64,000 nucleotides of DNA. It comes from Planctomycetota bacterium (GTDB lineage Bacteria; Planctomycetota; SZUA-567; H5-PLA8). The notes under the pieces were generated by a model. The model did not search any database, was not told where the DNA came from, and saw only the letters and a program-made list of their open reading frames with translations. Below are positions 16,754-26,092 of this stretch, piece by piece; the first letter of the stretch is position 1, and every line of letters begins with the position of its first letter. The stretch is taken from positions 1-64,000 of the forward strand of contig BTVV01000014.1 of the NCBI GenBank assembly GCA_045863855.1. The letters run 5' to 3'. Position numbers and translations under genes: made by a program.

Positions 16754-17116
16754 ATGAACGTCGAACGCCTGGATCACGTCACCGTCAACGTCACGGACCT
16801 CGATCGCGCGATGCGCTTTTACGGGGGCCTCTTCAAGATGCGGGAGGTGCCGCGCCCCGAAAGCTTCACCTTTCCCGGCGCGTGGTACGACCTGAACGGG
16901 ACGTTTCTGCATCTGGTGGTCGTCAAGCAACCGGATGCGTTGACGAGCCGGCACATGGCGCTTTGGACGAGCGACGTACGAGCCGCGGCGCAAGCCGTCG
17001 AAGCCGCCGGATTTCCCGTGCGCTGGGATCGCACCAAAATACCGGGCGTGGACCGCTTCTTTACCGACGATCCGGACGGCAATCGGGTTGAGGTGCAGGG
17101 ATCGGACGCGATTTAG
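16754..17116 (+). CDS. VOC/glyoxalase family protein
   Basis: LDHVTVNVTDLDRAMRFY...DPDGNRVE. Confidence 0.92.
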   Translation: MNVERLDHVTVNVTDLDRAMRFYGGLFKMREVPRPESFTFPGAWYDLNGTFLHLVVVKQPDALTSRHMALWTSDVRAAAQAVEAAGFPVRWDRTKIPGVDRFFTDDPDGNRVEVQGSDAI

Positions 17117-17130
17117 GAATTGAGCGGAAA

Positions 17131-17499
17131 CAAAAACGGCGTGTGATCGGACCTGCCCGCGCTGGGGCCAGCCCACTCACACGCCGCCTTCAGCAGCCAC
17201 ACACCGCGTGCCCTGGCCCTCAACGCGCTCAGGTTTCGTGCACGCGGCGCAAACCTCTCCGCGCTCCCGGCACACTCCACGCGCCCTGCGACTGCTTGCT
17301 CCTAGTGGCCGCTCGGACAGGAAGGAGGGGGTGTCCTGTCCGCGCGGCCGGGGGCGCCACGCGCCCCAAAAACCTCTGCGTCTGAGACGGGCTCGACCGG
17401 ACTGGGGGGCTACGGGTGCAACCTGGCGGCCGCCCACTCCGGCGAGCCCGAATGCTTTAAATCTGGCTTGCTCGATCTCAATCGCGTACGACTTCCATC
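17131..17499 (-). ncRNA. Candidate structured non-coding RNA, family unassigned
   Basis: Five adjacent helical domains with G-U pairs on the minus strand; upstream TTGACA/TATAGT; terminal hairpin plus U-tract; no credible CDS. Confidence 0.55.
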
Positions 17500-17505
17500 G
17501 CTCAC

Positions 17506-17536
17506 ACTATACCCCACAAAGTACGTGTACTGTCAA
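17506..17536 (-). promoter_or_regulatory. Sigma-70-like promoter with 19-nt spacer
   Basis: Minus strand TTGACA (17536-17531), N19, TATAGT (17511-17506). Confidence 0.55.
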
Positions 17537-17627
17537 ATTCGAGCCGAAAAAACTTAGGTAAATACGGTGTCAAGCAATCGGTTCGCTTGTCCGGAGGCGT
17601 ATGCACAGGTTGAACGCAGGGGATCGG

Positions 17628-18020
17628 TCAGGCCGGCTTCGGTTGCGGCTCGGGAGACAGGCTTAATCCGGCGCGTTCTAGAATCACCTCGCCCAGCTTA
17701 TCGTGCAACCCCAGAGGCTTGGTGCAGCGCCATTTAACCCCTGGATGGGTCTTAGCCGCTTCGCTGGCCATGACGGGGATATCCTGAGCCGCATGCCGGC
17801 CGGGTGAGAGCATGTACGGATGCACGATCACTTCCGTCGCGCCTTCGCGTACGCAGGCTTCAAAGCCTTGGGCGATGGTCGGTTCCGCCAATTCCATATG
17901 CGCGATCTGGACAATCAGGTCCGGGCGTTGCCGGCGCAGGATCGCGGCCACTTCTTCGAGCATCTTGTTCGCGGCTTCGCGCTTGGAGCCGTGGTCGACG
18001 ATCAGTAACGCGGTGGGCAT
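17628..18020 (-). CDS. CbiX/SirB small chelatase domain protein
   Basis: IVDHGS, AHMELAEPTI, PYMLSPGRHAAQDIP, PLG. Confidence 0.9.
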   Translation of the reverse strand: MPTALLIVDHGSKREAANKMLEEVAAILRRQRPDLIVQIAHMELAEPTIAQGFEACVREGATEVIVHPYMLSPGRHAAQDIPVMASEAAKTHPGVKWRCTKPLGLHDKLGEVILERAGLSLSPEPQPKPA

Positions 18021-19107: not shown

Positions 19108-19660
19108 TTAAAACGTCATCACTTCCTTCGATTTCTTCTCGTACGATTTGTCGAGCTGCGCTTCGTAGGTCTTAATGAGTTCCTGGAGGTCGTCCTTGGC
19201 CTTCTGGATTGCGTCTTCGCTCACGCCTGCCTCGCCCTTGTTGCCTTCGATATGCTTCTGCGAATCCTTGCGGACGTTACGCAGCGCGATCTTGTGCTGT
19301 TCGAGCCTCTCTTTAATCATCTTCACCGTCTGCTCGCGCCGTTCCTGGCTCATCGAAGGAAACGCGAGGCGGATCACTTTGCCGTCGTTCGAAGGGGTGA
19401 TGCATGATCGCGCGCTCGATCTCTTTGATGGTCTTGGGATCGAAGGGCTTGATCGCCAGCATTGTCGCTCCTTGCTTGGAGACGACAGCGACCGACTTGA
19501 GCGGCACCAGTCCGCCAAAAGACGGAATATCGGCTTGCACGCCATCCAGGATCTCGACGGAGGCCTCGCCGGTACGCACACCCTTCAGGAAGTGCTCGTA
19601 ATCGGCGTTCGTCTTGATCATGCGGTCTTCGGCGTCCAGCAGCACATCATCCAGCGTCAT
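19108..19660 (-). pseudogene. frr: Ribosome recycling factor, frame broken near 19402 (real lesion or assembly error)
   Basis: Frame 1 VRTGEAS...KPFDPKTIKEIERAIM; frame 2 ITPSNDGKVIRLAFPSMSQERR...KKSKEVMTF. Confidence 0.88.
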
Positions 19661-23947: not shown

Positions 23948-26092
23948 ATGAAATTCTACTTCTGCGAGAAGTGCGGTCAGCGCCTGACCGAGAACGATAT
24001 AAAGCGCGGAGAAGCTCGCGATAAAAAGCTGCGTGGCGTGATGTGTTCGGGCTGCGCGGAAGGCGTCATGACGCTCGAAACGATGCCGATGGATGAGGAG
24101 AATGCGCGGAAGATCCTTCAGCACGATTCTACAAGTGGCGCGGCCGCCGCAACTCCCGCATCACCTACCGCTCCGGTGGTGCGCAGCGTGCGCCGGACCA
24201 CCGGTGCACAGCGCGTAATCCCGCCTACCGATCAACCGCGCCCAAGCGACAGCGGTCTGCGAGCAGGTCGCTTCAAGAGTCCCGCCACGCCCGCTGTCCC
24301 TGCTACTAGTTCCAAAGTACCGCTGGCGATCGCCGGGTTGGTCGTCCTGGCCGTGACTGTGTTGGCGGCCGTGCTCTTATCGGGTGGTGCGCCGCGGGAA
24401 TCCGCACGCCCGCGCGAAACCTTGGTTGTCGAGACGTTCTCCCCGCTCCCAGCTCCGCATGCCACGATCCCGGCTCCGATCCGAACGCTTCCCGCGCCTG
24501 AAATCCCTGAGCCGGAAGTGGTGCCCGCGCCGGCGCCCGAAGCTCCCGCGCCAGAGCAGCCTGCGGAGGTAAACGAAGCACCGCCAACTCCGGTCGAATC
24601 TTCACCTCCGTCTGGAAATCCGCCCGCGGCAGCGCCGGAAGTTCCCAAGCCCGAAACGCCTGTCGCCGTGCCTGCAGATCCCGCACCTCTCGCGCCGGAC
24701 TTGCGCGCCGAGACTTGGCCTTGGCATGAATTGCTGACGGCCTTGCAGGCCGAAAACCACGGTCGCGCACAAGCTTGGCTCGACGCACGCCCGGCCGCCG
24801 CGCCTGGATTGGACGACCTGCGCCTGTATTTCGAAGCTCGTGAAGCACGCCAGGTGGCCATTGTCGCGGCGCTGCAAGGGCGCGTGGGCCAGCCGATCGA
24901 TCTGCCAACCGCGACCGGCCGCGTGAAGGGGACGCTCGTCGAGTTCAAAGAAAATACGCTGACCGTGGAACGTCCCATGATCGTGAACGGCGAGACGCGC
25001 GGTCAGTTTCGCACCGCGGTGGCGCTGAATCAGGTATCGTCGGAAGCGCGCGAGGGCTTCGCGGCGCCGACCGCGCTACCTGGCGATGCCGGTCGTATCT
25101 CACGCGTACTGGAGGCCTTCGCCGACAAGGATTTGGATGCGGCCGGCAAGGCCCTGGATGATTTTCCCGCTCATCCGTTGCACGCGGCGCTGGCCGACCT
25201 ATTGAAGAAAGCACGAGCCGAGCGGCTGGAAGAAGAAGCGCGGACCGAGTGGGAGCGCTTGCGCGCCGAAGCCGAAAAAGCGCAGACCATCGCGGTAGCC
25301 GACAAGTTGAGCGCCGAACTCAAGGCTTGGGACGCGCGCTTCGGGTCAACCGTATTCGCCAAGGACTATATGCGCCCCGAGGAGCGCGCGGCACTGAATG
25401 AACGTCTCGCGGGGGCCGGGATCGCCAACGATCCCCGGTTGCTTCAATTGTTCCGGGGGCGAGTGGTGAAGTTCGACCGCCAGACACTCGAGATCACGCT
25501 TCTGTACGACTTTCAGGAGCAGCGACAATGCGAAGACTTTTTGGGCACCTGGCATGACGGAGGCGATCAGACGGGCGCCCACTGGCGTAGAGGCTCAATC
25601 AAGCTGCTGGGCAAGGCCGTTTTCAGCCGCGTGCTGTGCCTGCCCTTCTTGCGCTCCCAAACCTTTTCGCTGGCCATGGACTTTAAGGAATTGAAGGCGA
25701 GTTGGGGAAATAAGTTCATAGGGATCGGGTGCTTCGGACAAGAGACCGTTGGCAATGGGCCGTTCCACGTATTGGCTTTCGGCAAGGAAGGCTGGGCCTT
25801 GCAGGACTTGAACAACCGGCCTCTACACAAGGGGAGTTCAACACCGCCGCCTGAGAGTGGCCGGTTGGAGGTGGATTGCCGGGGAGGCCAGTATCGCCTC
25901 AAGTGCAACGGGCAGACCATGCTCGACAAAGCCGTTCAACCCAATGACCAAGTGGGCATCACCCTCGTCAGCGGCTGGGACACCTACATTACGATTACGG
26001 CCCTGCAGGTTTCCGGCCGGCTCGATCCGGCTTGGGTGAAGCAGGCGCTCAACCCGCCAAAGCCAGCCGTACCATCGCCCACATCGAAATAG
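23948..26092 (+). CDS. Zn-finger / TM / Pro-rich linker / beta-sandwich membrane protein
   Basis: MKFYFCEKC...CSGC; TM LAIAGLVVLAVTVLAAVLL; long P/A/E linker. Confidence 0.75.
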   Translation: MKFYFCEKCGQRLTENDIKRGEARDKKLRGVMCSGCAEGVMTLETMPMDEENARKILQHDSTSGAAAATPASPTAPVVRSVRRTTGAQRVIPPTDQPRPSDSGLRAGRFKSPATPAVPATSSKVPLAIAGLVVLAVTVLAAVLLSGGAPRESARPRETLVVETFSPLPAPHATIPAPIRTLPAPEIPEPEVVPAPAPEAPAPEQPAEVNEAPPTPVESSPPSGNPPAAAPEVPKPETPVAVPADPAPLAPDLRAETWPWHELLTALQAENHGRAQAWLDARPAAAPGLDDLRLYFEAREARQVAIVAALQGRVGQPIDLPTATGRVKGTLVEFKENTLTVERPMIVNGETRGQFRTAVALNQVSSEAREGFAAPTALPGDAGRISRVLEAFADKDLDAAGKALDDFPAHPLHAALADLLKKARAERLEEEARTEWERLRAEAEKAQTIAVADKLSAELKAWDARFGSTVFAKDYMRPEERAALNERLAGAGIANDPRLLQLFRGRVVKFDRQTLEITLLYDFQEQRQCEDFLGTWHDGGDQTGAHWRRGSIKLLGKAVFSRVLCLPFLRSQTFSLAMDFKELKASWGNKFIGIGCFGQETVGNGPFHVLAFGKEGWALQDLNNRPLHKGSSTPPPESGRLEVDCRGGQYRLKCNGQTMLDKAVQPNDQVGITLVSGWDTYITITALQVSGRLDPAWVKQALNPPKPAVPSPTSK

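What the first reader, a model, noticed from the sequence alone, without database searches (positions are those of the whole stretch)
17131..17499. Stand-alone ~370-nt multi-helix RNA candidate with an exposed anti-Shine-Dalgarno loop
Seen: back-to-back helices at 17388-17450 (CGGGCTCG/CGAGCCCG closing a larger domain), 17351-17367, 17307-17349 (GGCCGC.CGGACAGGA/TCCTGTCCG.GCGGCC), 17192-17296 (AGCAGUCGCA/UGUGGCUGCU enclosing GUGUGCC/GGCACGC and AGGUUU/AAACCU) and 17132-17190 (GGCGUGUGA/UCACACGCC plus U-tract). Mismatches resolve as G-U on the minus strand, which also carries the promoter. The 17307-17349 loop reads CACCCCCUCCU (anti-SD-like). No gene follows on that strand, so it is not a riboswitch leader. 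Inference: an undescribed trans-acting ncRNA, possibly pairing with RBSs as C-rich-loop sRNAs do.
Basis: partly seen in the sequence, partly recalled or inferred. Interest (0 to 1): 0.75.

Follow-up and report, generated by a model that had tools for sequence, protein, structure and literature searches.

The report
Noncoding RNA with periodic GAG ladder
An uncultured Planctomycetota lineage carries an undescribed ~370-base folded RNA whose conserved part is a rod of short helices broken every nine bases by the same three-base mismatch, which looks like a row of protein docking sites and not like the ribosome-site-pairing loop first proposed.

Summary
The feature is real: a single-copy, minus-strand structured RNA (about 17499 to 17128) between convergent cbiX and glyoxalase genes, with no Rfam match. 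Homologs occur in 6 of 17 genomes of the family (3 genera) and one metagenome contig. None was found elsewhere in the class or in the phylum samples searched. Two parts are conserved: a 5' stem (17388-17450) and a rod (17192-17296) of 5-6 bp helices separated by 2-4 symmetric G-N-G/G-N-G loops at a 9-nt period, with 19 of 29 pairs showing double changes. One soil RNA library has contigs matching the predicted ends; two others run through the locus. The loop words (YGCR-GAG) resemble the arm word of dispersed repeats that bracket GxxExxY nuclease genes in relatives. Best reading: a multivalent protein-binding RNA whose partner is unknown, with the ladder possibly recruited from that repeat. Canonical 6S RNA is undetected in the whole family, so an RNA-polymerase-binding role stays open. 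Function is untested.

The parts
17531..17536 (-). -35 hexamer TTGACA of the predicted promoter (19-nt spacer)
   Evidence: Sequence. The best -35-like hexamer also sits at 19 nt in G002, G012, G007 and G001, but not G004. Promoter activity not shown.
17506..17511 (-). -10 hexamer TATAGT; start site inferred near 17499
   Evidence: Sequence. TAnnnT hexamer at a like place in all 6 genomes. X7 contig aligns from 17497, with 7 unaligned letters before it.
17451..17499 (-). variable 5' leader; longer in G001, a different hairpin in G004 and G012
17388..17450 (-). Domain I: conserved stem with core GGC/GCC, a C-A or A-A mismatch, a 2-bp helix and a variable apical loop
   Evidence: In 7 of 7 homologs. 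90.7% of 118 cells paired, but only 2 of 21 pairs with double changes.
17351..17367 (-). small GC hairpin, seen in this genus only
17307..17349 (-). hairpin with C-rich anti-SD-like loop (17323-17333); exposed only in this genus
   Evidence: absent in L097
17192..17296 (-). GNG/GNG ladder: four symmetric 3x3 loops (17286-84/17204-02, 17277-75/17213-11, 17268-66/17221-19, 17259-57/17230-28) between 5-6 bp helices
17137..17186 (-). long 3' hairpin, likely intrinsic terminator
   Evidence: U tract follows clearly in 5 of 7 homologs, weakly in L097, not in G007.
17128..17136 (-). U tract, predicted 3' end
   Evidence: Sequence. X7 contig ends at 17131.
17628..18020 (-). upstream neighbour, CbiX-family gene (context)
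   Evidence: PF01903. Directly upstream of the RNA in all 6 genomes.
16754..17116 (+). convergent downstream neighbour, glyoxalase-family gene (context)
   Evidence: PF00903. Convergent in G000, G002, G001, G012 and L097.

Best explanation
A stand-alone noncoding RNA that works through its shape, as a multivalent protein-binding RNA (sponge or scaffold). It is transcribed from its own promoter behind cbiX and ends at the 3' hairpin. The ladder presents 2-4 near-identical GNG/GNG internal loops at a fixed 9-nt spacing, each a likely site for one copy of a protein, and domain I is a second, single site. The partner is not identified. The ladder was possibly recruited from the 9-nt-period repeat word (CRCRGAG) that is dispersed in these genomes. 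Shown: conserved fold, synteny, single copy, non-coding. Weakly shown: a discrete transcript. Inferred: promoter use, protein binding, origin from the repeat.
For: Ladder base on a plain MAFFT alignment: 77 of 77 cells paired, 6 of 11 pairs with double changes, 0 of 500 shuffles reach the covariation score. Whole ladder on a model-fitted alignment: 97.2% of 181 cells, 19 of 29 pairs. A model built from this genus alone found the ladder in the four other homologs at E 1.6e-9 to 4e-4 in their loci. 47 of the 49 triplets read at loop positions are G-N-G, 34 of them GAG, while helix letters change. Loop number is 4 in five homologs and 2 in two, a modular pattern. No unpaired stretch outside these loops is conserved. 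G000 versus G002: 356 of 370 identical in the RNA against 100 of 121 at glyoxalase third positions; by my reading of the listed differences, those inside the conserved stems keep or restore pairs and three fall in loops. Only 1 of 6 two-loop ladders in the genome has 3 or more GAG strands, and it is this one. X7 contigs cover 17131-17288 and 17268-17497, with no depth in the bin 17515-17695.
Against: No binding partner or binding assay. Only 7 related sequences, so covariation counts are not independent. In G000 itself the ladder fold lies 1.4 kcal/mol above a branched minimum-energy fold. Domain I covariation is weak (216 of 500 shuffles reach 2 double-change pairs). Two of the four RNA runs have contigs that run through the locus into both neighbours, and one has none on the RNA; all are contigs without strand, and no DNA control was laid. 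Range is narrow (6 of 62 class genomes). The repeat likeness may come from alternating C-G helices in a 64% GC genome.
Confidence: 0.45

Rival explanations
1. Decoy for the repeat-reading protein. The ladder displays the arm word of the GxxExxY nuclease cassettes on both strands and binds the nuclease, or a host factor that reads those arms, restraining the element.
For: Ladder words YGCR-GAG score above random genomic GAG contexts under a matrix from 108 repeat words, p at most 0.003 in 7 of 7 sequences. The ladder model scores a pure 9-mer tandem array from another phylum at 82 bits, against 84-92 for five of the six member genomes. These arms bracket GxxExxY genes in 4 of 6 loci viewed. All 5 RNA-bearing relatives have such genes.
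Against: No GxxExxY gene found in G000 (94% complete). Repeats (14 of 17) and nuclease genes (14 of 17) also occur in family genomes without the RNA. The arms are DNA palindromes with GAG facing CTC, and none of 16 single arms folded into a GAG/GAG ladder. The matrix was anchored on the word itself, so the test is partly circular.
Confidence: 0.13
2. A 6S- or Ms1-like RNA that binds RNA polymerase and stands in for the 6S RNA this lineage lacks, the regularly interrupted rod acting as a DNA mimic.
For: Rfam 6S matches 33 of 62 class genomes but 0 of 17 in this family. In G000 the gene that lies beside 6S in one relative follows the upstream gene after about 22 nt, leaving no room. Length is near Ms1 (about 300 nt; PMC9130861, passages). 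That spaced internal loops let 6S mimic B-DNA is recalled, not checked.
Against: No closing 5'-3' stem or central bubble: 1.2 of 128 expected pairs span more than 150 nt. Found in only 6 of the 17 family genomes lacking 6S. Other Planctomycetes lack 6S too (PMC5673643, passages).
Confidence: 0.12
3. Not an independent RNA but the structured 3' end of the cbiX operon transcript, a stabiliser or terminator region between convergent genes.
For: Always directly downstream of cbiX on the same strand (6 of 6 genomes). X1 and X2 contigs join it to neighbours.
Against: A -10-like hexamer is kept ahead of it in 6 of 6 genomes. X7 contigs stop at the predicted start. About 300 nt of conserved loops exceed what termination needs.
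Confidence: 0.12
4. One reading: a trans-acting small RNA that pairs with ribosome-binding sites through the C-rich loop.
For: The loop is predicted unpaired (0.8-1.0) in G000, G002 and G001, and CUCCUU is kept while the stem changes. It could be a genus-specific addition.
Against: Paired in G004, G012 and G007, absent in L097. One loop only, not the repeated CCUCCUCCC of cuckoo RNAs. In G000 and G001 the loop also has a partner in the next linker (-6.2 and -9.9 kcal/mol).
Confidence: 0.1
5. A functionless relic of repeats or of a mobile element.
For: The ladder resembles a tandem array of a dispersed repeat word, and such arrays fold the same way.
Against: Single copy, same locus across 3 genera, non-palindromic compensatory helices, conserved domain I, higher identity than third codon positions.
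Confidence: 0.05
6. A CsrB-like sponge for CsrA.
For: G000 encodes CsrA. Several loop words read GGAG.
Against: GGA is 8 against 7.2 expected in G000 and at most about twofold above expectation elsewhere. Many loops read AGAG or UGAG, and they are internal, not hairpin, loops. The csrA gene follows what I read as flagellar flgL and fliW genes (names from my reading of the translations), a setting recalled as protein-controlled.
Confidence: 0.03

Closest known systems
CsrB/RsmZ-type protein-titrating RNAs (recalled, not read here)
   Same: Stand-alone RNA with a variable number of repeated short purine-rich motifs in a conserved structural setting.
   Different: Motif is a symmetric 3x3 internal loop in one continuous rod, not GGA in separate hairpin loops; no Rfam match; GGA not enriched in G000.
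Cuckoo RNAs (CcsR/RSs0680, SmelA075; PMC4615179, abstract and section 6 read)
   Same: One hairpin with a C-rich anti-SD-like loop, in this genus.
   Different: Cuckoo RNAs have 2-4 adjacent hairpins each with CCUCCUCCC, in Alphaproteobacteria. Here one loop, another sequence, not conserved; CcsR1 scored 14.7 bits against a cut-off of 65.3 on the G001 homolog.
6S RNA (RF00013) and Ms1 RNA (PMC9130861, passages read)
   Same: Long stand-alone structured RNA in a lineage with no detectable 6S; length near Ms1.
   Different: No central bubble and no closing stem; a row of independent hairpins.
GxxExxY (PF13366) cassettes and their gene-less palindromic repeats
   Same: Seven-base word ending in GAG at a 9-nt period.
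   Different: The repeats are multi-copy inverted arms (GAG facing CTC). The ladder is single-copy, has GAG on both strands and sits inside a larger conserved RNA.

Membership tests
Any Rfam 15 family | score at or above the gathering cut-off | tested here: not met
   0 matches in the window; only sub-threshold matches here and in the five other homolog loci scanned
Cuckoo RNAs | 2-4 adjacent hairpins, each with a CCUCCUCCC loop | tested here: not met
   one loop CACCCCCUCCU, exposed in 3 of 7 homologs
Base-pairing sRNA with anti-SD seed | conserved unpaired seed | tested here: not met
Base-pairing sRNA with anti-SD seed | pairing with mRNA in vivo | not testable with these tools
   needs experiment
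6S RNA | single rod with closing stem and central bubble; RF00013 match | tested here: not met
Ms1 RNA | central bubble plus terminal hairpins | tested here: not met
   no long-range closing stem; suboptimal folds not compared with Ms1
6S / Ms1 | binds RNA polymerase; abundant in stationary phase | not testable with these tools
   contig depth cannot rank expression
CsrB/RsmZ sponges | many GGA motifs in hairpin loops | tested here: not met
SRP, RNase P, tmRNA, tRNA | family model match | tested here: not met
   each is found elsewhere in the genome, none here
Riboswitch / cis leader | consistent gene downstream on the same strand | tested here: not met
   convergent gene in 5 of 7; same-strand frames that do not resemble each other in G004 and G007
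REP / MITE | many dispersed copies | tested here: not met
   one copy by BLAST and by both models
Small-protein gene or type I toxin mRNA | conserved reading frame with a start | tested here: not met
   a frame is open in G000, G002 and G001 without a shared start, and is broken in G004 and G012

The most novel reading that the evidence does not exclude
A host noncoding RNA built from the arm word of a selfish nuclease-plus-repeat element: the 9-nt repeat was turned into a self-folding GAG/GAG ladder that binds and restrains the protein reading those repeats, or mimics DNA for RNA polymerase in a lineage that lost 6S. It would be a new RNA recognition module and a first RNA handle on the GxxExxY family.
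Probability: 0.2. Interest if true: 0.82.

Novelty: new variant of a known kind. Interest (0 to 1): 0.56.

Why it matters
The searches run here found no description of this RNA or of a ladder of identical GNG/GNG loops. Such a ladder is a simple, testable RNA module. If it binds a protein, it adds a multivalent RNA regulator in a phylum with few known ones. It also bears on two open points: what replaces 6S RNA in Planctomycetota lineages that lack it, and what reads the 9-nt repeats around GxxExxY nuclease genes. The narrow range and lack of cultured hosts limit its reach.

Tried and rejected
Viral contigs: 0 matches with two patterns. All-species genome scan with the ladder pattern: 14 stretches, 3 carry domain I and are this RNA, 11 do not. 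Phylum samples: pattern 6 of 401 genomes (5 members, 1 chance); ladder model 4 of 150, the one outside hit being a 9-mer tandem repeat; domain I model 3 of 150. Five sister-genus genomes with laxer filters: one hit at E 0.48 not followed, otherwise none; none near cbiX or glyoxalase in 24 further loci. These searches score only a subset of candidates, so divergent forms may be missed. One search used a misregistered structure string and is discarded; one search is the corrected count. The first ladder scan lacked a working positive control and was redone. An H-type pseudoknot between the C-rich loop and the next linker was rejected because about 3 nt cannot span a 15-bp stem (inference). A shared operator in the 19-nt spacer was looked for by eye: dyads exist but differ in sequence and place. 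A Y-RNA reading was dropped: only a 49-position TROVE match, not followed. No four-helix-bundle gene found in G000. Literature: 9 searches gave no listing that describes this RNA, the ladder or the repeat; subscription papers and supplements of large RNA-motif screens were not seen and could list it.

Full report
Verdict. The region is a real, conserved structured RNA with no known family. The conserved part is a ladder of identical internal loops, which points to protein binding. Function is untested.

Setting. The region lies between a glyoxalase-family gene (16754-17116, +) and a CbiX-family gene (17628-18020, -), which converge on it. The window is contig C14 of G000, 93.9% complete. Titled records that carry the same RNA are Planctomycetota.

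The observation. The listed outer stems are in the sequence. The minus strand folds at -221.7 kcal/mol (z -5.7, 0 of 100 shuffles as good) and the plus strand at -199.5 (z -5.4). Rfam gives no match at gathering score in the window and only chance-level matches by E-value. BLAST and two covariance models find one copy in the genome. tmRNA, SRP and RNase P RNA lie elsewhere.

Homologs. BLAST over 61 genomes gave 10 with a match, of which 3 were long: G000, G002 (97%) and G001 (69%), both in the same gene order. Looking behind cbiX in family genomes added G004, G012 and G007 from two other genera. A metagenome scan added L097, 1 of 80 loci screened out of 118 found. Models trained on these sequences found strong matches in the same 6 of 62 class genomes and none convincing outside, nor in 150 phylum genomes. 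Those matches are by construction. The independent test is, where a ladder model from one genus found the other four homologs in their loci.

Anatomy. All seven homologs share, 5' to 3', domain I, a variable middle, the ladder and a long 3' hairpin. The ladder is a rod of 5-6 bp helices separated by symmetric three-by-three loops. It has four loops in five homologs and two in G007 and L097. Of 49 triplets read at loop positions, 47 are G-N-G and 34 are GAG; one of the two exceptions is a hairpin loop, not an internal loop. On a plain alignment of the ladder base, 77 of 77 cells pair and 6 of 11 pairs change on both sides. On a model-fitted alignment, which leans toward the structure, 97.2% of 181 cells pair and 19 of 29 pairs change on both sides. 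Seven related sequences are not independent, so these are not probabilities. In G000 the ladder is 1.4 kcal/mol above a branched alternative. Domain I is 90.7% paired but has only 2 of 21 double-change pairs. The RNA is 356 of 370 identical between G000 and G002, against 100 of 121 at glyoxalase third positions. No reading frame is conserved across genera.

The anti-SD loop. It is predicted unpaired in G000, G002 and G001. The matching tract is mostly paired in G004, G012 and G007, and the hairpin is missing in L097. Cuckoo RNAs are defined by 2-4 hairpins each with CCUCCUCCC (PMC4615179, abstract and section 6); that test fails. A genus-specific pairing role is not excluded.

Expression. Fourteen runs were listed and four laid. 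In soil run X7, two contigs cover 17131-17288 and 17268-17497, and the next bin upstream has no depth. This fits the predicted ends. In X1 and X2 contigs run into both neighbours, and X6 has none on the RNA. All are unstranded contigs from related strains, with no DNA control, so this is a hint only. A -10 hexamer is present in all 6 genomes. The best -35 lies 19 nt upstream in five of them, whereas the genome-wide peak is 16-17. Such spacing is recalled as typical of MerR-activated promoters, but no shared operator was seen, and it stays unexplained. A same-strand frame follows in G004 and G007 and a convergent gene in the other five, so a riboswitch leader is unlikely.

Link to a repeat family. 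G000 holds dozens of dispersed repeats with the word CRCRGAG every 9 nt, often as inverted pairs. In relatives these arms bracket GxxExxY nuclease genes, in 4 of 6 loci viewed, as earlier unchecked notes of this scan reported. The ladder's words are YGCR-GAG at the same period. They score above random GAG contexts in 7 of 7 sequences (p at most 0.003), and the ladder model scores a pure tandem array of the word at 82 bits. Against a functional link: the test is partly circular, alternating C-G helices are common at 64% GC, single arms do not form ladders, G000 has no detected GxxExxY gene, and repeats occur without the RNA.

Missing 6S. Rfam 6S matches 33 of 62 class genomes and 0 of 17 in this family. 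The site where one relative has it leaves no room in G000 (gene names there are my reading). The RNA lacks the closing stem and central bubble of 6S and Ms1 (PMC9130861, passages), and 6S is reported missing in other Planctomycetes too (PMC5673643, passages). It is not a member of either family, but a polymerase-binding role is open.

Mechanism. Conserved internal loops, freely changing helices, a variable number of units and no conserved seed are what one expects of an RNA that binds several copies of a protein (inference, by analogy with CsrB-type RNAs, recalled). I put this at 0.45 with an unknown partner. The named-partner versions are separate: repeat-reading protein 0.13, RNA polymerase 0.12, CsrA 0.03. 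The other readings are an operon 3' end 0.12, anti-SD pairing 0.10 and a relic 0.05. That it is a functional structured RNA element is about 0.9.

Novelty. Nine paper searches gave no listing that describes the RNA or the ladder; most results were seen as listings only, and supplements of large motif screens were not seen. No earlier finding of this scan matches the sequence. Orphan structured RNAs are a known kind, so I file it as a new variant with an unusual module. Interest 0.56.

Noticed in passing
G000 genome, e.g. C31:24534/24690, C32:52730/52825, C32:56425/56550, C39:21532/21605, C24:59287/59356: Dispersed repeat family with a 7-base word every 9 nt, often as inverted pairs about 70-160 bp apart; in relatives the arms bracket GxxExxY genes, but none was found in G000.
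   Followed up: partly
window 19108-19660 (-): What I read as the ribosome recycling factor gene is split over two frames, and contigs of three RNA runs carry 14 extra bases at 19401. The window's copy may hold a deletion or an assembly error.
   Followed up: no
G000:C1:23667-28178 (-): Array of 26 tRNA genes, with one arm of the dispersed repeat inside it at 24624.
   Followed up: no
window 17506-17536 and homologs: Promoter-like hexamers are 19 nt apart in 5 of 6 genomes, with different dyads in or over the spacer.
   Followed up: partly
L047 about 1712-1790 (G007): The 3' hairpin is replaced by a near-perfect inverted repeat without a U tract, and a frame with a signal-peptide-like stretch but no clear start runs through it.
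   Followed up: no
G000:C5 about 31000 (-): The gene that neighbours 6S RNA in relative G046 follows the upstream gene after about 22 nt; no Rfam 6S in any of 17 family genomes.
   Followed up: partly
L182 about 1490-1580: A pure tandem array of about nine copies of one 9-mer in a Thermodesulfobacteriota record folds into the same GAG/GAG ladder.
   Followed up: no
G000:C34:6672-6818: Short TROVE-family match (49 of 442 positions) in a 582-residue frame.
   Followed up: no
G000:C125:17730-17828 and C231:1173-1268: ARAGORN calls two selenocysteine tRNA genes.
   Followed up: no
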